Assembly: GCA_963748815.1 (NCBI GenBank)
Contig: CAVVKJ010000009.1
Location: 32,001 to 96,000 of the forward strand
Length of the DNA: 64,000 nt
Reading direction: 5' to 3'
DNA from: an uncultured Gemmatimonadales bacterium
Lineage (GTDB): Bacteria > Gemmatimonadota > Gemmatimonadetes > Gemmatimonadales > GWC2-71-9
A program made the position numbers and the translations under genes. The notes beneath the pieces are model-generated. The model did not search any database. It was not told the origin of the DNA and worked only from the letters and a program-made list of their open reading frames with translations. Shown here piece after piece: positions 55,154 through 64,000 of the stretch (its first letter is position 1; each line of letters begins with the position of its first letter).

Positions 55154-56294
55154 ATGCAGTGGTCGTTCCGTATCGGACGGGTCGGCGGCACCGACATCAA
55201 GGTCCACATCACCTTCCTCGCGCTGGTCGCGTGGTGGGGATACTCGGCCTACGCCGACGGTGGGCGGACGGCCGCGGTCCAGGCGGTCGTCTTTCTCCTC
55301 GCGCCTCTTCGCCTGCGTGCTGCTCCACGAATTCGGCCACATCCTGATGGCGCGCCACTACGGCGTCCGGACCCCCGACGTCATCCTCCTCCCCATCGGC
55401 GGCCTGGCACGCCTCGAGCGGATGCCGGAGGAGCCGCGACAGGAGCTGCTGATCGCCGCGGCGGGCCCCGCCGTGACACTCGTCATCGCGCTGACGCTCT
55501 TCGGTGCGCTGCAACTGACCGGGGCGCCCCTCGATTCCGAGCAGCTCGACCCGACGCGTTCCGGCCTCCTGCAGCAGATCATGTGGATCAACGTGGCCCT
55601 CCTCCTCTTCAACCTCCTCCCGATCTTCCCGATGGACGGCGGCCGGATGCTCCGTGCGCTCCTCGCCATGCGCATGGGCCTGCAGCGGGCCACGCGTCTG
55701 GCCGCCCGCGTGGGGCAGCTCGGCGCCATTGGGCTGGGGCTCTGGGGGCTGGGGTTCTTCTCGCGCTGGGGGTACGGCCCGAACATCGTGCTCGTGCTGA
55801 TCGCGGTGTTCATCTATCTCGCCGCCGGGGCCGAGGGGGCCGCGGTGGAGACCAGGACGGCGGGACGTGGCCTGACGGTGCGGGAACTGATGATCACGCA
55901 GTTCGTCGCCCTGCCGATCTACGCCACCCTGCAGCAGGCGGTGGACGCCCTTCTCGCCGGGGAACAGAGCGAATTCCCGATCATGGACAACTGGGGAAAG
56001 GTGGAGGGAATCCTGACCCGCGACGGACTCATCCGGGGACTCTCCCAACTGGGCGTCGGCGCCACCGTCGAACGGGCCATGAGCACCGGCTTCGCGTCGG
56101 TCCCCGTCGAGCTCCCCTTCGAGGCGGCGATCGAACGGCTGGTCCAGAGCGGGCTGCCGGCGCTCCCCGTCGTCGACGACCGCGGGGCGCTGGTGGGTCT
56201 CCTGACGGGGGACAACGTGAAGGACGTGCTGCTGGTGCGGCAGGCGGGGGTGCAGTTTCCGGCCCGTGCGCATCATCCGCCCCGTCTCGAATGA
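55154..56294 (+). CDS. Site-2 protease (M50) with tandem CBS domains, +1 frameshift near 55305
   Basis: IKVHITF, LLHEFGH, AAAGP, FNLLPIFPMDGGR, C-terminal CBS pair. Confidence 0.9.
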
Positions 56295-56511
56295 GCACCG
56301 GTGCGGCGATGCCTTCCAAACCGCCTGCTGGGCTGCCGTCGTCCTCCGGGTGGCCTTCGAGCGGCTGACCCAGAACGGCGCCATCATCACCGCGCTCCGG
56401 CCCGTGCTGGTGGCCGAGCAGCTCGGGCCGGTCCCGACCACGACTCCCGTCGCCAGCCGGGAGTCAAACGAGTTGGCGGAGGCTGTCGTCCAGACGCTTC
56501 GGCGCGACTAG
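56266..56511 (+). other. Possible 3' gene remnant or small ORF
   Basis: Coding-like codon bias in the 3' part (VAFERLTQNGAIITALRPVLVAEQLG), with no convincing start. Confidence 0.25.
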
Positions 56512-56763
56512 CTCGATGGGGCCGATCTGACCGCGCCGGCCGTCCTCCAGGCCTCGCGGACTATCATACCGAGGAGGCCCCGCACTCGGGCCTTCAGATA
56601 CTCAGCCCCGTCGCCTGTCGGCAGGCCCAGGTGGTAGCCAGGCAAGAGGCATCCTAGGCCGGCGGCTGTCTCGCCAACCGGGGGTCAGATCACATCTGGG
56701 GACTCGGGCGTGAGGGTTACGACCAGTGCCCGGCGTGCGCTGTCACTGTTGGGAGGACTTCTC

Positions 56764-57474
56764 CTAATACCCAGCCCGATCGGCATCACGGAGAAGTGGG
56801 CCAATAATTGTGTCAAATGCCCGCCGCTGGTCTCCCTTGAGAAGCCGCTGCATGAGGCGCAGTTCGGCGATCCCTGCCTGGTACCAGAGCGGCGCGTCCA
56901 CCTGAGCACCGAGGCGCCTCCAGGTCGTGAGTTGCCCTCCGACTGCTTCGAGGGTCGCACCCGTGAGGCACGCTTGGCGCAGGAGGGATTCTTGTTGATC
57001 CGAGGTAAGCTCGGCGCTCAGGGCTGCCAAGATCTCGGTCCGGCGCTCGTCCTGCGTCGGGTAGTCGAAGGCCCATAGAATCAAGTCTGCCGGCCCGCCA
57101 AGCCTCCGATATATCTCAGCTGCGGACATCGCGACCCACGCACCGAACTCCAGGGGATCGGTAATCATTGCCGCGAGAGTATTCGCCAAGGCCAGGGAAT
57201 CTGCCTGCCACACGCTATCAAGCTGCTGCCACGACGGTCCGCGGGCCGGATCCTCCCTGAGTATCAACGGCTCGAACATCTTCACGATCGTCGAATCGGC
57301 CTCCAGACGGACTCCCGGAGCGATGTCCTCCCTTGTGCGCGCCGGTAGCACCGCGACACATTGGCTGACGACGGACTGGGCTGCGGCCGCGCCGGGCAGA
57401 CCAGACCACAGCAACAGGAGGAAACGCAGGCGGAAGTGGCGTCGTGGCAAGAGGGTCTCTCCGGTCATCAACAA
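56764..57474 (-). CDS. Putative immunity protein of the orphan Rhs C-terminus, with signal peptide
   Basis: Overlaps the toxin stop and has an AAAQ cleavage site. Paralog of 58415..59176 (LDS.W.AD......TLAA....P; WY..GI.EL.LM..LL.G.....FD.I.GP.L). Confidence 0.7.
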   Translation of the reverse strand: MLMTGETLLPRRHFRLRFLLLLWSGLPGAAAAQSVVSQCVAVLPARTREDIAPGVRLEADSTIVKMFEPLILREDPARGPSWQQLDSVWQADSLALANTLAAMITDPLEFGAWVAMSAAEIYRRLGGPADLILWAFDYPTQDERRTEILAALSAELTSDQQESLLRQACLTGATLEAVGGQLTTWRRLGAQVDAPLWYQAGIAELRLMQRLLKGDQRRAFDTIIGPLLRDADRAGY

Positions 57475-58360
57475 TGGAGCGACGGCCCGCGGACCAGTTG
57501 ATTCGCGGCTTGGTAAGTCGCGCAGTGATAGGTAGAAGTGCCATCATATGCCGAAAGGCTATGCAGTTGTTCATGGATGGCGTAGTTGGCCAAGTATCGC
57601 CCCAACCGGGGCGCGAAGAACCGGCCGGCGTGGATCGCGGTCGGAGCACCGAAGTTGTCGCTGTCATACGGCGTGGCGGCAACTGGAAATTCGCCTGGTT
57701 TGGTCATGGTCGAGTTCACATACTTGCTGTTCTCAAACACGAGGCCACCCAGTAGACGCTTAAGAAAGCCTCCCATCGCTTGCCCCGGCGACACATGGAG
57801 TCCATTGGGAAGGGTCACCGATGGGCTCGCCCAGTTCATGCCGGTAAGGACTGCCTCGAACAGCCCCCCAGACTGGCCGAATTTCAGCGGAGACGCCCCG
57901 CCACACACCACGCCGAATACCCCGCCCCCGGCCAAAACGCCCCCCCCCCCGACAGAACCCCGCGACACGCCCCACCCACAGGTCGCACACTGCGCCCGAG
58001 GCACGCGCCCATTCCATCGGCGCCGCCGCCCCCCGCTGCCCATAGCTCGCCCCGCCGGTGAGTGGACGGAGCTCCCCGCCCCCACCGAAGCAGATATCCA
58101 CGCCCAGGCACAAGTCGTCCCAGCTGAGATATGCCCAGGTCGCATCCTTGACCAGCCCATCCGGATCCCGGGCCTGGAGCACGTCGCCGTTGATATAGGC
58201 ATAGACGTTTCCGCCCCCCGCATAGCCGATGCGGTCCTCCTGCACAAACCGCCCCACCGTGGGGTCAAAGTACCGGCTCCGGTGGAAGTAGAAGCCGGTC
58301 TCGGCGTCCCATTCCCGCCCGGTCCAGCGATACCGGGGCGGGGGCTGGGGACCGGCGCTG
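57468..58360 (-). pseudogene. Orphan Rhs module: core remnant plus HExxH C-terminal domain, no start codon, frameshift near a G11 run
   Basis: RYRWTGREWDAETGFYFHRSRYFDP...RDPDG, then in another frame GGFLKRLLGGLVFENSKYV...IHEQLH...HC...C*. Confidence 0.82.
58034..58360. repeat. ~330 bp direct repeat of 59702-60028 (Rhs core end and post-DPDG segment)
   Basis: Manual alignment. Differences are mostly synonymous. Confidence 0.92.
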
Positions 58361-58414
58361 CGTCAGCATCGACCGGACCGGTCGGTGCCGTCCGTCGTTG
58401 GAGGCCCCAGAACC

Positions 58415-59176
58415 TCACCGGCTTGGGGGTGCTAGCCATTTCACAAGTGCTTCTTCGGCCCGGCCCAGAGTTGGTCCGAGAATGCGATCGAACTGCACGA
58501 GCAACTCCCCCGAGAGGAGGCCCCTCATCAACTCCAACTCCTGAATCCCACTATCATACCAGCTTGGCAACCCAGCTCGACCGTCAAGTGATTTGAGCGA
58601 ACCGAGGTGGGGAGTCAAGGCGTCCACACCTATCGCCGTCCGACAGGCTACCCGGAACACCAGAACCTGTTCGAAACTCGACAGTGAATCTGGAAGCGCG
58701 ATGAGGATGTTGTAGTTGCGTGTCTCCGACTGGGGCACATCGAGGCTTGCAAGAAGCCACGTCGATGGGCCTCCGCGCCAATGGTATTCCGTCGCAGCGC
58801 CAAGGGCAGCATCGTGCGAATACTCAGATGGAGTCACAACGATCGCAGCAAGAGTGCGGACAAAGCCCTCGGGATCTGCCTTCCATGCGCTGTCGAGAAC
58901 AAGTCTCCGGCTTCTGGCGGTGGCGCTGATTGGCTCGTCGATGACTGTTGACGAAAAGATTGGCAGCACTAGGGGAAGTAACTGACGATCCGGCCATGGA
59001 TAGCGCGATGACGCGCTGTCGGATGTGCCCGCCTTGGCTATCACCTTTTTGCAATCGCATGCCATCGACTGAGCGAACGCCGCCTGTGGCCCGATGAATA
59101 TGGCGAACGTCACTGCCAAGGCCCGCGCCTCGCGCGCCCAGCCAATTCGGGCGCGTCCGACGATCACGGTATGCAT
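58415..59176 (-). CDS. Putative immunity protein of the full-length Rhs toxin, with signal peptide
   Basis: Overlaps the Rhs stop, lower GC, hydrophobic LAVTFAIFIGPQAAFAQ segment, paralog of 56764..57474. Start uncertain (59176 or 59224). Confidence 0.7.
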   Translation of the reverse strand: MHTVIVGRARIGWAREARALAVTFAIFIGPQAAFAQSMACDCKKVIAKAGTSDSASSRYPWPDRQLLPLVLPIFSSTVIDEPISATARSRRLVLDSAWKADPEGFVRTLAAIVVTPSEYSHDAALGAATEYHWRGGPSTWLLASLDVPQSETRNYNILIALPDSLSSFEQVLVFRVACRTAIGVDALTPHLGSLKSLDGRAGLPSWYDSGIQELELMRGLLSGELLVQFDRILGPTLGRAEEALVKWLAPPSR

Positions 59177-62100
59177 GGGAGATAGTGGTCGGTTAGGTAA
59201 TTGGCGGTTGCGTAAACAGCGCAATGCCCAGCTTCGGTCGCAGAAGCGCCCGGGAAGAGGAAATGCAATTCTTCATGTACGAATGTGTTCGCCAGATCGT
59301 CCCGGTTTGTCCGCGCGAACACGAGGCGCTCATCCACTATCGTAACACCGAACACGGTCACCGCTCTCGTATCTGGTGAGCGGCCGCCTCCGTGGACATA
59401 CCGCGCGTTCTGGAAGATGCTGCCGCCGACCAGGCGCGCAATGAATGAGCCGACTACCGTTGACCCGAACAGGTCGCCGAATAGCAAGCTGGAGCGAGTG
59501 TTACGAGTTACCGCGTCGAGGGCTCGGTAGAAGTTCCCTCGCCCCAATGCACTCGCGCCCTCAAACATCGCTGACACTTCGGGTAGAGTCCCAGGACCGC
59601 CTATAGATTGGGCCAGCGCGGCGTAGTTTTGCTTGTACTGTTCATACATGTCGAACTTGAAACTCGACTGGGCCCCCCACTCGATGAGCGCATTGGCCAT
59701 GCGCTGCCCATAGCTGGCCCCGCCGGTCAGGGGACGGAGCTCCCCGCCCCCACCGAAGCAAATATCCACGCCCATGCACAAGTCATCCCAGCTGAGGTAC
59801 GCCCAGGTCGCGTCCTTCGTCAGCCCATCCGGATCCCGGGCCTGGAGCACATCGCCGTCGATATAGGCATAGACGTTTCCGCCCCCCGCATAGCCGATGC
59901 GGTCCTCCTGCACGAACCGCCCCACCCCCGGATCATAGTACCGGCTTCGGTGGAAGTAGAACCCCGTCTCGGCGTCCCACTCCCGCCCGGTCCAGCGGTA
60001 GCGGAGCGGGGGCTGCGGGCCGGCGCTGTCGATCAGGTTGCCGTAGGGGTCGTAGCGCAGGCTCCCGACCCACGCCCCGTCGCCTCGCCGCACCAGGGCC
60101 CGCACACTCCCCAGCGGGTCCAGCACCACCCGGTAGGTGGTGTCGCGCACCGTCACGCCCAGCAGGTTGTCCACGCCGGGACCCCAGGTGTAGATCGTCG
60201 TGAGGCCGGTATTCGCCGAGTCGGTCTCGAAGGCTACTTGGCCCCCGGCATAGACCATCCGGAGGTACCCCACCGTGCCGCCAGTGGCGCCGCTGTACAC
60301 CCGCTTGACGATCCGGCGGCCGGTCACGTCATACCCGTAGCGGGCGATCAGCACCCCGTTCTGCCGCACCCAGATGAGGCGCTCCAGCGCATCATACCCG
60401 TAGGTCCACCCCGGCACCACCTTCTGGAGGAGGTTGCCGGCATGGTCATAGTTGAGGAAGCCTCCGGACTTCCGCAGCTGGTTGGTCGTGGCGTTGAAGA
60501 GCTCGCCGCCCTGCACAAACAGGTTGTCCATCCGGTCAAAACTGTAGCTCCGGCTCACCAGGGAGTCGGGACTCCCCGCCGCCCGCGCGGCCGAGGAGCG
60601 CTGCCACCACCCGATCACCCGCTGCCAGCCGTCGTAGACCACCGAGTCCCGCAGGCTGTCGGGCGTGGCCACGGCACCCGCCTGCCGGCTCCAGAAGGGC
60701 TTGAGCATTGGGCCCAGGGAGTCCACCGCGTCCTCCCGGTCGAGCGCGAGGGCCGCCCACGTCGGGCTGCTGAACACATTCACCTGGTAGCTGGCCGCCG
60801 TGAGCGCCCCGCTCAGGTTCCAGCCCCGGCTCTCCAGGTGAATCGGCGTGCCCGCCGGCCCCCGGGTCGTGAGGCTCTGGCTCCGGCCCAGCTCGTCCAG
60901 CACCAGCGCCAGCGAGTCGCCCAGCGGCGTGAGCAGGGTGTCGGGGATGCCGCGGGCCGTCTCGTAGCGGGTCTGCCAGGTGCCGACCGCGTCGGTCCGG
61001 GTGGTCGGACGCTCCCAGGGATCATAGGTGTAAGTCTGGATGCGGGGTACCGTGCCGCTCCAGGCGGTGTCGGCCACCAGGCGCCCCCGCTGGTCGTAGC
61101 CCCAGCGGAGTTCGCCATTGATCCCGCCGATCGAGTCCACCGGATTCTCCAGCCACTGCCGCGTGCGCTGGTCCGCCGGGCCCTGGTAGGCCTTCCGCAT
61201 CGTGCCCACCGTGGGAATCACCGCCAGGGTGTCCCGGTTTCGGCTGTCATAGTGGGTCGTGATGACGTACCCCCGCCGGGTGATGGTCTTGACGACGTTG
61301 CCAGCTAGATCGTAAACGAGCGAGTCCTTCACGGTCGCACTGTCGGCCCACGGCCGCCGACTCACCACCCGGCCCAGCCGGTCCAGCCGGTAGGTGGTGG
61401 CCTTGCCCCGGGGGTCCACCCGGGCCGTGTCCCGCCCCGCGCGGTCCCGCCGGTACCCCACCGCCTGCCGGTGCAGGGAGTCGAAGCTCGCCGGCCACGA
61501 ATAACAGGGCGCCGTGCAGTTGTCGCCCCGGAACAGCACCGTCGAGTCCACCTCGTTCGCCACCGTGTACCAGGTGCGGACCTTCCGCCACTGGATCCGG
61601 GTGGCCCCGAGGCTGTCGGCGACCCGGAGCGAGCTCTCGGTCGTCGTGTCCCGCCCCTGGGCATCGTACTTCGTCCGCGACCGGAGCTGGTTGTAGGGGC
61701 CCGTCACCTCGCTTGGGTTCTGCCAGGTGCCATCATACGCGTACCGCACCGCCCCCGCTCCCGAGCGCCGGGTCGAGTCCACCCGCCCGTCGGCCCGATA
61801 CCACACGAAGCTGGAGTCGTCGGCGGGCCCCACCGTACGGATCGGGTTGCCCACCGCATCATAGGTGATCGCGGTGCTATTGTCCCGAGGATCCACCTGC
61901 CGGATGACCCGGAAGTTGGCGTTGTAGACCAGGCTGTCGAGCCGCAGCGTGTCGCTCGCCGCGCGGACCCAGAAGGTCTTCACCACCTGGCGGAGGCTGT
62001 CATACTGGGTCCAGACCCGGCTCGAGTCGGCCACCTTCCCTTCCGTCCAGACCACCCGCCCGTCCATGTGGAAGCTGGCCTGTGCGAGGAGCCCGAGCGC

Positions 62101-64000
62101 ATCCCAGGTCCGGGTCGCCTGCCCCCAGCGATTGACCAGCGAGCGGGTCCAGAAGCCGCGCGGGTCGGTCATCTGGACGTAGGCGCTGTCCAGCGCCCGG
62201 AGCGCCCCGAGGCCCTGGTACTCCCGCGCCGTGTACCCGATGGTGGGCGTCTGCCAGCTGCCGCTCGAGTCCTGCACGCTGGGAAGCTGCACCTGCACGG
62301 GGCGGAAGCCGAAGGCCGGGTCATACGCCACCACGGTCGTGTCCGCGAGCACGCCGATGCGGCGCTGGAGCACCAGGGTCTTGCTTAGCGCCCCGTAGAC
62401 CGCATAGACATAGCTCGTCGTGTAGGGCGCTCCCGTTGGCGAAGGGATCGAGTCCCGGGTGAGTTGGTTGGTGGGGCCGTCAATCGTCACCTTGGTCTGT
62501 CGGAGCGAGCCGCCCGTCAAGCTGGCCAGATGCGTGAGCGTCCCACCGGCGGTGTAACCGAAGCTGATCTCCTTCCCGACCGGATCCTTCACCTTGAGAA
62601 TCTTGTCGCTCGACCCCTCCCACAGCACCGAGTCGCGCTGGCCATTGACGTCCTGGGTGTACAGCAGGCGCCCCGTCGTCGCCTCGTATACGCTGCGGGC
62701 GAGACTGCCCCGAGGGGAAAGCTCGAGCTGGGCGCCGACCTTCTGCAGCACCACCTCGCTCCCCGGCGGCGCCAGGAAAAGGCTGTCCCCATTCCCCCGG
62801 AACACGCTCACCGCGCCGGTGGCCGAGACCAGCAGCCGGTCGTTCCCCGCCGGCACCAGCAGCACCCCCGCCGTCGGCCACCACCCCGATCCGTACCGCG
62901 TGGCCCGCCGGTCCACCAGCACCACCTCCACCGAATCGCTCGAGCTCCGGGTCGTGCCCCCGGACGTGACCCGGCCCTCCACCCGGAGCCACTTCCGGGT
63001 CGGGGTCGGAAACGTGCTCCCCATGAAGTCACCTTGCAGCACCGCCCGGCACCGCCGCACCGAGCCGGTGAGGCAGGTCGGGCTCGCGAACCGCACCGAG
63101 TCGAGCACCGTGGTCCCGTCCTGCAGCACAAAGGTGAGGTCGTCCGGCGTCCCGGCCGGCCAGGTGAGCTCCAGGTCCACCGGCACCAGCACCCGGGGAT
63201 ACGACTGCCGCGTCGAATAGACCAGCCCCGTGCTCCGCGGCACGCCGCGCGACACGTACGGTACCGTGCTCACCCCCGCCTCGATTTCTCCGGCGGTGAC
63301 CGCGAGCCCGGGGCCGAAGGGCGAGCTGAAGGCCCGCCCCAGCGCTTCGGACGGCACGCCGCTGAAACCCAGGATCGGCTGCTCATCGCTCGGGAGCACG
63401 ACCCACGGGGTCACGGTGGTGCAGCCCCCGTTGAGTGCGCAGACCCGGAGGCTCAACGCCGCCGAATCCGCCGCGCCCGAGCCCACCGTCCCCAGCCCCT
63501 GGCTCGAATCCGGTTCCCACTCCAGGAGCCCCCGATTCACCCGGGCCTGCCGCGTCACGTCCACCCCCCGCCAGGTGAGTCGCACCGTCGTCGAGTCGAT
63601 CGCCTGCCCGGGGTCCAGTCCGCCGCGCACCCACTGCGCCGACACCCGGGGCTGCCGCGTGCGCACCACCGCCCGGTTCGGCCCCGTGGCAATCGGTGCC
63701 ACCAGCGTGATCACCGGGTTCGCGAGCAAGGTCACCGCCAGCGTATCCGCCGCCGGGCCACCCGTCTTCCCCGTGGCGGTCAGGATCACCTCACCCGCAC
63801 CACTGGTGCCGGTCGCGTAGGTCACATCCACTTCCCGGCTCTGCCCCGGGGTCAGGCTGCTCTGAAAGCTGGGTGTCACGCTCACGCAGGCCACCGCCCC
63901 CGTCGCTGAGCACGCCATGCCGATGTTGATGATGGTGGTGGTGCCGGTGTTCCGCACCAGGAAGGTCCCGACCACCGCACCCTGCCCCGCCGGCTCGGTG
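59164..64000 (-). CDS. Rhs/YD-repeat protein with HExxH C-terminal toxin domain, 5' end beyond the window
   Basis: Many YD repeats, core RYDPYG...WTGREWDAETGFYFHRSRYYDPGVGRFVQEDRIG...DPDG, lower-GC tail with VHEELH. Confidence 0.95.
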   Translation of the reverse strand, partial: TEPAGQGAVVGTFLVRNTGTTTIINIGMACSATGAVACVSVTPSFQSSLTPGQSREVDVTYATGTSGAGEVILTATGKTGGPAADTLAVTLLANPVITLVAPIATGPNRAVVRTRQPRVSAQWVRGGLDPGQAIDSTTVRLTWRGVDVTRQARVNRGLLEWEPDSSQGLGTVGSGAADSAALSLRVCALNGGCTTVTPWVVLPSDEQPILGFSGVPSEALGRAFSSPFGPGLAVTAGEIEAGVSTVPYVSRGVPRSTGLVYSTRQSYPRVLVPVDLELTWPAGTPDDLTFVLQDGTTVLDSVRFASPTCLTGSVRRCRAVLQGDFMGSTFPTPTRKWLRVEGRVTSGGTTRSSSDSVEVVLVDRRATRYGSGWWPTAGVLLVPAGNDRLLVSATGAVSVFRGNGDSLFLAPPGSEVVLQKVGAQLELSPRGSLARSVYEATTGRLLYTQDVNGQRDSVLWEGSSDKILKVKDPVGKEISFGYTAGGTLTHLASLTGGSLRQTKVTIDGPTNQLTRDSIPSPTGAPYTTSYVYAVYGALSKTLVLQRRIGVLADTTVVAYDPAFGFRPVQVQLPSVQDSSGSWQTPTIGYTAREYQGLGALRALDSAYVQMTDPRGFWTRSLVNRWGQATRTWDALGLLAQASFHMDGRVVWTEGKVADSSRVWTQYDSLRQVVKTFWVRAASDTLRLDSLVYNANFRVIRQVDPRDNSTAITYDAVGNPIRTVGPADDSSFVWYRADGRVDSTRRSGAGAVRYAYDGTWQNPSEVTGPYNQLRSRTKYDAQGRDTTTESSLRVADSLGATRIQWRKVRTWYTVANEVDSTVLFRGDNCTAPCYSWPASFDSLHRQAVGYRRDRAGRDTARVDPRGKATTYRLDRLGRVVSRRPWADSATVKDSLVYDLAGNVVKTITRRGYVITTHYDSRNRDTLAVIPTVGTMRKAYQGPADQRTRQWLENPVDSIGGINGELRWGYDQRGRLVADTAWSGTVPRIQTYTYDPWERPTTRTDAVGTWQTRYETARGIPDTLLTPLGDSLALVLDELGRSQSLTTRGPAGTPIHLESRGWNLSGALTAASYQVNVFSSPTWAALALDREDAVDSLGPMLKPFWSRQAGAVATPDSLRDSVVYDGWQRVIGWWQRSSAARAAGSPDSLVSRSYSFDRMDNLFVQGGELFNATTNQLRKSGGFLNYDHAGNLLQKVVPGWTYGYDALERLIWVRQNGVLIARYGYDVTGRRIVKRVYSGATGGTVGYLRMVYAGGQVAFETDSANTGLTTIYTWGPGVDNLLGVTVRDTTYRVVLDPLGSVRALVRRGDGAWVGSLRYDPYGNLIDSAGPQPPLRYRWTGREWDAETGFYFHRSRYYDPGVGRFVQEDRIGYAGGGNVYAYIDGDVLQARDPDGLTKDATWAYLSWDDLCMGVDICFGGGGELRPLTGGASYGQRMANALIEWGAQSSFKFDMYEQYKQNYAALAQSIGGPGTLPEVSAMFEGASALGRGNFYRALDAVTRNTRSSLLFGDLFGSTVVGSFIARLVGGSIFQNARYVHGGGRSPDTRAVTVFGVTIVDERLVFARTNRDDLANTFVHEELHFLFPGASATEAGHCAVYATANYLTDHYLPCIP

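What the first reader, a model, noticed from the sequence alone, without database searches (positions are those of the whole stretch)
56764..64000. Rhs polymorphic toxin locus with a family of HExxH C-termini and exported immunity proteins
Seen: Rhs, then immunity 1, orphan core plus C-terminus, and immunity 2. The two C-termini are divergent homologues (GSFIARLVGGSIFQNARYV vs GGFLKRLLGGLVFENSKYV; LANTFVHEELH..HCAVYATAN vs LANYAIHEQLH..HCATYQAAN). Both keep a possible third His ligand and a Cys pair near the end. Both immunity proteins are paralogues with signal peptides. Known: Rhs orphan toxin/immunity modules swap in by recombination, and HExxH marks zincin peptidases. Inference: an envelope-acting metallopeptidase toxin with a periplasmic inhibitor family that I do not recognise, diversifying within one family rather than between unrelated ones.
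Basis: partly seen in the sequence, partly recalled or inferred. Interest (0 to 1): 0.75.

Follow-up and report, generated by a model that had tools for sequence, protein, structure and literature searches.

The report
Exported Rhs peptidase toxin, unnamed antidote
A Gemmatimonadales-type bacterium carries a giant Rhs protein, likely exported, that ends in a predicted zinc-peptidase domain, plus a spare frame-broken cassette, each followed by a gene for a likely exported antidote; the design is known from other bacteria, but neither protein family matches a catalogued one.

Summary
The locus is real: Rhs with C-terminus CT1 (HEELH…HC), imm1, an orphan core plus CT2 (HEQLH…HC), then imm2. CT1/CT2 are 35% identical and imm1/imm2 33%. 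The confident CT model has a zincin-like fold (best Z 6.7, M35 peptidases) and matches no Tox-MPTase2-5, M91 or M35 profile. The imm proteins belong to an unnamed all-helical family (158 hits at the 50% level) with signal-like N-termini and two conserved Cys, found only in one Gemmatimonadales family. Of 43 Rhs ends in relatives, 10 are followed by this family and all 10 carry this CT family; 10 other HExxH tips are not. The third His is Glu in some relatives. Relatives swap unrelated toxins onto the same Rhs, so 'diversifying within one family' is local only. No T6SS was found in 6 genomes. Periplasmic HExxH Rhs toxins with periplasmic immunity are already shown (M91; also Tpe-Tpi). Verdict: new families of a known kind. 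Toxicity and binding are untested.

The parts
59164..64000 (-). Rhs/YD-repeat protein (continues beyond the window; signal-like N-terminus at window-equivalent 64144 in another frame across a 17-base run); weak Ig-like match at the start, YD repeats, core, C-terminus CT1
   Evidence: homologous open frames of about 1,540-1,780 aa, several with hydrophobic N-termini
59821..60054 (-). Rhs-associated core ending in DPDG (59824-59835), the likely autoproteolysis site
   Evidence: TIGR03696 E 5.7e-19; position; cleavage role is established Rhs knowledge, recalled
59164..59823 (-). CT1, 219 aa: linker plus predicted zincin-like metallopeptidase; HEELH 59263-59277, candidate third ligand His 59224-59226, Cys 59221-59223 and 59173-59175
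   Evidence: AlphaFold pLDDT 88; fold search; alignments
58415..59176 (-). imm1, 253 aa, all-helical, signal-like N-terminus (AFA|QS), two family-conserved Cys; putative cognate immunity protein of CT1
58008..58307 (-). orphan Rhs core end plus linker, 89% identical to 59676-59975; likely recombination handle
57896..57985 (-). G-rich, A-poor patch with an 11-G run where the frame changes between orphan core and CT2; assembly error or real lesion undecided
   Evidence: not covered by listed contigs
57468..57944 (-). CT2 peptidase part: HEQLH 57561-57575, His 57525-57527, Cys pair; homologue of CT1
56764..57468 (-). imm2, 234 aa, signal-like N-terminus (AAA|QS), paralogue of imm1, start overlaps the CT2 stop

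Best explanation
This is an Rhs polymorphic-toxin locus whose tip is predicted to be a zinc metallopeptidase that likely attacks the cell envelope of neighbouring bacteria, and the gene after each tip likely encodes a periplasmic protein that binds and blocks it. Inferred steps: the Rhs goes through Sec by its N-terminal hydrophobic segment, without a T6SS. The core cuts at DPDG and frees CT1. CT1 binds zinc with His142 and His146 of HExxH plus His159 on the next helix (Glu in several relatives), is probably disulfide-stabilised, and cleaves an unknown envelope protein or lipoprotein. The orphan core-CT2-imm2 is a spare cassette that could recombine in through 300 bp of 89% identity, while imm2 may already guard against kin carrying CT2-like tips. 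Shown: anatomy, homology, predicted fold, family-specific pairing. Not shown: export route, toxicity, target, binding.
For: Rhs core and YD repeats. Zincin-like model, with H133-148 carrying HExxH and a following helix 156-170. The first 26 rows of the wide fold search, and about 47 of 50 by my reading of titles, are zinc-peptidase-fold proteins; best Z 6.7, rmsd 3.4, 117 aligned. Atlas features of a homologue point to metallopeptidases (top 0.91). HExxH is invariant in 10 of 10 CT-family rows, and the terminal Cys is kept in at least 90%. Pairing: CT1 alone found G006, G009 and G011, and the CT alignment found G218; all have an imm-family gene next. Of 43 Rhs ends, 10 are followed by the imm family and all 10 are CT family; 0 of 10 other HExxH tips are, and two such clades share only the motif (HHalign 2% and 6%). 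The four imm proteins beside His-type tips lie in one branch, support 100 (quick tree). Imm family: 99 of 129 proteins of 200 aa or more have a hydrophobic N-terminal stretch; one Cys is in 129 of 130 rows, the other in all 110 rows covering it. VipB, VgrG and Hcp were not found in the own genome, nor VipB in 5 carriers at least 90% complete. Precedent: PMC13556075, PMC6899460.
Against: No experiment. The best fold Z (6.7) is under the tool's mark of 8, and Foldseek found nothing at E<=0.001. The third ligand rests on alignment and helix position; coordinates were not inspected, and one member (HEYAH) shows no clear His or Glu there. The 10-of-43 tally is partly circular (four CT rows of the profile were picked for lying before an imm gene), includes near-copies, and some loci were fetched because of imm hits. 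Many imm-family genes have no toxin next to them, including a conserved stand-alone copy (64-93% identical) in 7 of 17 genus genomes, which could mean another role. The only secretin found sits in a pilMNOPQ-like operon by my reading, so no route across the outer membrane is identified. The own genome is 86% complete.
Confidence: 0.68

Rival explanations
1. The tip is a toxin, but it acts in the target cytoplasm or on a eukaryotic competitor or grazer. The exported partner only keeps it inactive while the Sec-exported Rhs sits in the producer's periplasm.
For: Any Sec-exported Rhs passes through the periplasm, so partner location need not mark the target compartment (inference). Atlas feature neighbours include host-directed protease families M85 and PipA/GogA at 0.91 and 0.89.
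Against: Toxin-free imm clusters (5 copies in G125, 3 in G422) make sense mainly if the toxin arrives from other bacteria in the periplasm. The Cys pairs fit an oxidising compartment. The Atlas hits share only 110-128 of 256 features, the range of distant relatives or chance.
Confidence: 0.1
2. The Rhs is a surface or secreted protein whose peptidase tip serves feeding, adhesion or self-processing. The downstream protein is a chaperone, a general inhibitor or an envelope housekeeping factor, not kin-specific immunity.
For: A conserved stand-alone family member sits at one fixed locus in 7 of 17 genus genomes, 5 of which have no CT-family match. No delivery machine was identified.
Against: The orphan cassette layout, about 30% identity among Rhs-adjacent partners, the swapping of unrelated tips each with its own downstream gene and the clusters of partner genes are the pattern of polymorphic toxin and poly-immunity loci (PMC3482391).
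Confidence: 0.13
3. The HExxH domain is a zincin-fold hydrolase that is not a protein peptidase, for example a peptidoglycan-peptide hydrolase or a YbeY-like nuclease.
For: YbeY (three-His ligand set, recalled) is among the fold hits at Z 5.4, little below the M35 peptidases at 6.1-6.7.
Against: The top four rows are peptidases. Several relatives carry Glu at the third position, as gluzincin peptidases do. An exported partner argues against a nucleic-acid target.
Confidence: 0.09

Closest known systems
Salmonella Dublin Rhs-M91 SED_RS06335 / SED_RS06340 (PMC13556075; abstract, methods part and passages read)
   Same: Rhs with a C-terminal HExxH metallopeptidase, toxic only when periplasm-targeted, rescued by the adjacent envelope-located protein.
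   Different: PAAR-Rhs delivered by a T6SS, triad HExxH + E/D, membrane-anchored immunity. Here: a hydrophobic N-terminus and no T6SS found, no PF14891 match, His as candidate third ligand, and a partner predicted to be a soluble all-helical protein.
Tpe-Tpi family: P. aeruginosa VgrG2b-CT / PA0261, A. baylyi Tpe1 / Tpi1 (PMC6899460; passages read)
   Same: Periplasmic zinc metallopeptidase toxin; signal-peptide immunity protein with partly conserved Cys and low identity among orthologues.
   Different: T6SS effectors, not Rhs tips. Only a weak fold match (6h56 Z 3.9, rmsd 4.0, 106 aligned). The immunity proteins were not compared directly with PA0261.
Tox-MPTase1-5 of Zhang et al. 2012 (PMC3482391; table and passages read, supplement not read)
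   Same: Small Wss1-like zincin tips on Rhs proteins, several listed with the 'T2SS' export class; Tox-MPTase5 has HEELH like CT1; Wss1 is a fold hit (Z 5.5).
   Different: No match to PF15638-PF15641 at the locus. The table lists no immunity protein for them and no Gemmatimonadetes. Tox-MPTase1 was not tested by its own profile.
M35 aspzincins (deuterolysin 1eb6, AsaP1 2x3a, GfMEP 1g12)
   Same: Best structural neighbours, Z 6.1-6.7, rmsd 3.4-3.6 over 114-119 residues.
   Different: No PF14521 match. The Asp-ligand motif (recalled as GTxDxxYG) is not visible in the alignment. These are not Rhs tips.
Poly-immunity loci and orphan immunity genes (PMC3482391)
   Same: Clusters of divergent paralogous immunity genes away from a full toxin (G125, G422).
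   Different: The described loci are same-strand arrays without toxin cassettes. In G125 the five copies lie on both strands and one follows a CT remnant.

Membership tests
Rhs polymorphic toxin locus | YD/RHS repeats and an Rhs-associated core ending in DPxG | tested here: met
   PF05593 E 9e-11, TIGR03696 E 5.7e-19; DPDG
Rhs polymorphic toxin locus | Variable C-termini on a conserved scaffold among relatives, each with its own downstream gene | tested here: met
   43 distinct Rhs ends, mostly unrelated tips
Rhs polymorphic toxin locus | Orphan core-CT-immunity cassette downstream | tested here: met
   300-nt repeat at 89%; CT2 frame-broken as assembled
Rhs polymorphic toxin locus | The tip inhibits growth and the adjacent gene neutralises it | not testable with these tools
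   needs expression assays
Zincin metallopeptidases | HExxH on an active-site helix preceded by a small beta sheet | tested here: met
   H142/E143/H146 invariant in 10 rows, on helix 133-148 after strands 113-122
Zincin metallopeptidases | Overall zincin fold | tested here: inconclusive
   best Z 6.7, under the mark of 8, though nearly all top rows are zincin-fold proteins; no Foldseek hit at E<=0.001
Zincin metallopeptidases | Third zinc ligand on a downstream element | tested here: inconclusive
   His159 at the start of helix 156-170 in 4 rows; Glu at or near that place in 5 others; none clear in 1; geometry not inspected
Zincin metallopeptidases | Zinc-dependent peptide hydrolysis | not testable with these tools
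   bench assay
Tox-MPTase5 (PF15641) | HEELH signature | tested here: met
   CT1 and one G006 tip have HEELH; CT2 and the others do not
Tox-MPTase5 (PF15641) | Profile match over the cut-off | tested here: not met
   only genome hit is elsewhere, E 0.57, under the cut-off; 0 of 10 CT rows match
Tox-MPTase2/3/4 (PF15638, PF15639, PF15640) | Profile match over the cut-off | tested here: not met
Tox-MPTase1 | Profile match | not tested
   no accession for this family was used; the general Pfam scans found nothing
Peptidase M91 (PF14891) | Profile match over the cut-off | tested here: not met
   no hit at the locus
M35 aspzincin (PF14521) | Profile match and Asp-ligand motif | tested here: not met
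   motif (recalled) not seen
Tpe-Tpi (VgrG2b-type) effector-immunity pairs | Delivery by a T6SS | tested here: not met
   VipB, VgrG and Hcp not found in the own genome (86% complete); VipB not found in 5 carriers at least 90% complete
Tpe-Tpi (VgrG2b-type) effector-immunity pairs | VgrG2b-CT fold | tested here: inconclusive
   6h56 Z 3.9, rank 33
Catalogued immunity families (Pfam Imm*, NCBIfam, PADLOC) | Profile match of the imm family | tested here: not met
   Pfam: of 67 hits scanned, 65 no family, 1 weak DoxX, 1 unrelated ankyrin protein; NCBIfam 1 weak hit among 130; PADLOC 0 for imm1 and imm2

The most novel reading that the evidence does not exclude
One Gemmatimonadales family runs a T6SS-independent, Sec-exported Rhs arsenal aimed mostly at the envelope. 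About 20 of 43 tips seen are HExxH zincins of several unrelated clades, and 18 of 27 genes after tips outside this family have hydrophobic N-termini against 32% background. This CT family has switched its third zinc ligand from Glu to His in one lineage. Its all-helical inhibitor family has spread into toxin-free clusters, and one copy has been fixed in the core genome of the genus as a standing, broad zincin inhibitor: a new class of periplasmic metallopeptidase inhibitor and an unknown delivery route.
Probability: 0.3. Interest if true: 0.65.

Novelty: new member of a known kind. Interest (0 to 1): 0.43.

Why it matters
It adds an uncatalogued toxin family and a large uncatalogued immunity family (158 hits among 50%-identity representatives) from a phylum for which two searches found no paper on such Rhs systems beyond general surveys. 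The 2012 catalogue lists no immunity protein for its five Rhs metallopeptidase families; here one is pinned to its toxin by context. If the partner is a true zincin inhibitor with its own helical fold, it is a new inhibitor scaffold. The conserved stand-alone copy makes it testable whether orphan immunity genes become broad, permanent shields. The lack of a T6SS in carriers raises the open question of how signal-bearing Rhs toxins of diderms reach their targets.

Tried and rejected
Complex prediction CT1 + imm1 with alignments: no answer, score 0.17 against a mark of 0.32, controls not folded; no evidence either way. Fold searches of the imm model: only generic helical bundles (best Z 9.5 over 82 residues; Foldseek none at E<=0.001), so its fold is unassigned, not shown to be new. 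PDB sequence searches: nothing for CT1 or the imm profile; only weak hits for the CT profile (BepA/M48 at E 0.03-0.25, interferon gamma by chance). Atlas for an imm homologue: first hits under 0.9, unnamed. Word-index protein searches were insensitive: 3, 1 and 3 hits. The metagenome locus scan found no relative. Laid contigs from 8 runs did not cover the orphan frame break in the listed rows. Phase variation at the two homopolymers was considered: they are the longest in the genome, but relatives' Rhs N-termini show no such run in translation, a relative's contig differs in length there by a non-multiple of three, and the neighbouring M50 gene also has a frame break (1 of 21 further bins), so assembly error is preferred but unproven. 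A recent duplication of CT1/imm1 as the source of the orphan was rejected: imm2 is nearer to outside proteins (67%) than to imm1 (33%). Small shares in sequencing runs were not used for habitat. Four look-ups of earlier findings returned nothing. Literature: five searches; supplements of the 2012 catalogue were not read and could list related sequences.
Full report
Observation. The region holds, on the minus strand, an Rhs gene running out of the window, imm1, an orphan core with a second C-terminus, and imm2. The Rhs matches RHS_repeat and the Rhs-associated core and ends its core with DPDG. CT1 and CT2 share 33 of 95 residues (E 2e-11); imm1 and imm2 share 70 of 214 (E 1e-30). The orphan keeps 300 nt at 89% identity to the main core and linker. 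GC drops to about 0.58-0.60 over the tips and partners against about 0.70 around. Short public contigs match pieces of the cassette exactly, including the imm1/orphan junction.

The orphan core and CT2 are in different frames. The change lies in a patch with an 11-G run, 53 G and 2 A in 90 nt, more extreme than any of 210,348 sampled windows. Just outside the window, a hydrophobic, signal-like N-terminus is in another frame from the Rhs body across a 17-base run. A relative's contig differs in length there by a non-multiple of three, and relatives' Rhs proteins begin with hydrophobic segments. The assembly has other frame breaks. Assembly error is therefore likely for the Rhs start and undecided for the orphan.

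Organism and range. A protein from a same-genus genome is named 'Gemmatimonadales bacterium' by its source. The Rhs scaffold was found in 22 of 301 family genomes. The five-row CT profile matched 5 of 401, and the imm profile 23 of 401 family genomes. In a phylum sample the imm profile matched 10 of 166 genomes of this family and 0 of 234 from other families.

The tip. Neither tip, nor any of 10 family rows, matches Pfam at a meaningful level; CT1 has only a weak unrelated NCBIfam hit. Profiles for Tox-MPTase2, 3, 4 and 5, M91 and M35 do not ring at the locus, although CT1 has the HEELH string given for Tox-MPTase5 (PMC3482391). The model is confident (pLDDT 88, pTM 0.84, six rows): a short sheet, a helix with HExxH, then a helix starting at the second His-Cys motif. 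Foldseek gave nothing significant. The wide search ranks M35 peptidases first (Z 6.7, 6.7, 6.1), then BlaR1, Wss1, YbeY and minigluzincins. Each Z is below the tool's mark, but nearly the whole list is zincin-fold. HExxH is invariant. The candidate third ligand is His in the four tips from this genus's subgroup and Glu at or near that place in five others, while one row has neither. That supports a ligand role, but geometry was not checked.

The partner. A profile of eight imm proteins found 158 proteins at E<=0.001 among 1.84 billion representatives, mostly 200-250 aa. None of 67 scanned has a real Pfam family, apart from one ankyrin false hit; NCBIfam and PADLOC are likewise empty. Of 129 proteins of 200 aa or more, 99 have a hydrophobic N-terminal stretch, and many read A-x-A|Q. 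One Cys follows the predicted cleavage site and another lies mid-protein (all 110 covering rows, and 129 of 130), which suggests a disulfide. The model is all-helical (pLDDT 88) with only generic fold matches.

Pairing. Searches begun from the toxin side found tips in G006, G009, G011 and G218, each followed by an imm-family gene. The earlier six-row profile also touched the G386 tip before an imm gene (E 7e-4). Over 43 distinct Rhs ends with room to see the next gene, 10 are followed by the family and all 10 are CT-family. None of the other 33 is, including 10 HExxH tips of other clades, two of which share only the motif with this family. The tally is partly circular and holds near-copies. 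The partners of His-type tips lie in one branch (support 100, quick tree only), at 27-36% mutual identity.

Against 'one family only'. G013 has the same linker start with an unrelated HEFGH tip and another downstream gene, and G218 arrays mix unrelated tips. The scaffold behaves like any polymorphic toxin; the homology of CT1 and CT2 is local. imm2 is closer to outside proteins than to imm1, so the orphan was probably acquired rather than recently duplicated.

Toxin-free partners. G125 has five copies in about 5 kb with one CT remnant, G422 three, and no Rhs core was found in the fetched regions. A stand-alone copy lies between a Ser/Thr kinase-like gene and an Mrp-like gene (my reading of translations) in 7 of 17 genus genomes, including this one (C5:457215-457904), at 64-93% identity. 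A profile built only from six Rhs-type members finds it at E 3e-11 to 2e-7, and five of the seven genomes have no CT-family match. This fits a retained orphan immunity gene, but also a housekeeping role.

Delivery. VipB, VgrG and Hcp were not found in this 86%-complete genome, nor VipB in five better carriers. The one secretin lies in a pilus-like operon. Genes after tips outside this family are also mostly export-like (18 of 27 by a crude score against 290 of 902 background). Sec export is inferred; the step across the outer membrane is unknown.

Comparison with what is known. A periplasm-toxic Rhs-M91 tip rescued by its neighbour (PMC13556075) and the Tpe-Tpi family (PMC6899460) establish the mechanism, both through a T6SS. 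The 2012 catalogue lists Rhs zincin tips but no immunity for Tox-MPTase1-5. Two searches naming Gemmatimonad with Rhs returned only general surveys or nothing; subscription papers and supplements were not seen.

Verdict. The feature is real and works like a known periplasmic metallopeptidase toxin-immunity module, but it is not a member of any profiled toxin or immunity family tested. New member of a known kind; confidence in the mechanism about 0.68; interest 0.43.

Noticed in passing
G000:C5:457215-457904 (L047:716-1405, minus): Stand-alone, conserved member of the imm family with no toxin beside it; same locus in 7 of 17 genus genomes, 64-93% identical.
   Followed up: partly
L101:6562-11862 (G125) and L102:6626-10596 (G422): Clusters of five and three imm-family genes on both strands among other small exported proteins, with no Rhs core in the fetched region; near-identical orthologues are shared between the two genomes.
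   Followed up: partly
Loci (L019-L046), L104, L110, L113: The same Rhs scaffold carries many tips with no Pfam match: 25 of 29 had none under E 0.005, two matched eCIS_core, one DUF6782 and one DUF4329. By eye some look JAB-like, lysozyme-like, cell-wall-hydrolase-like or papain-like. Most downstream genes look exported. A pool of uncatalogued toxin-immunity pairs.
   Followed up: partly
window 57940-57950 and G000:C9:96061-96077: The two longest homopolymers of the 3.16-Mb genome (11 and 17) both lie in this locus and both coincide with frame changes; error or slippage undecided.
   Followed up: partly
window 57468-58439, minus: As assembled, a 323-aa open frame starts at an ATG in the end of imm1, reads the orphan core out of frame and runs into CT2; probably coincidental.
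   Followed up: no
window 55154-56294, plus: The M50-like peptidase/CBS gene next to the locus has a frame break relative to its intact G009 orthologue.
   Followed up: partly
L015:1285-8291 (G009) versus window 55154-64000: G009 has its Rhs-CT-imm between the same two flanking genes but in the opposite orientation and without an orphan cassette.
   Followed up: no
L014:8075-16059 (G006): Two Rhs genes lie back to back on opposite strands, with a His-type and a Glu-type tip of this family that share a linker, each with its own imm gene.
   Followed up: partly
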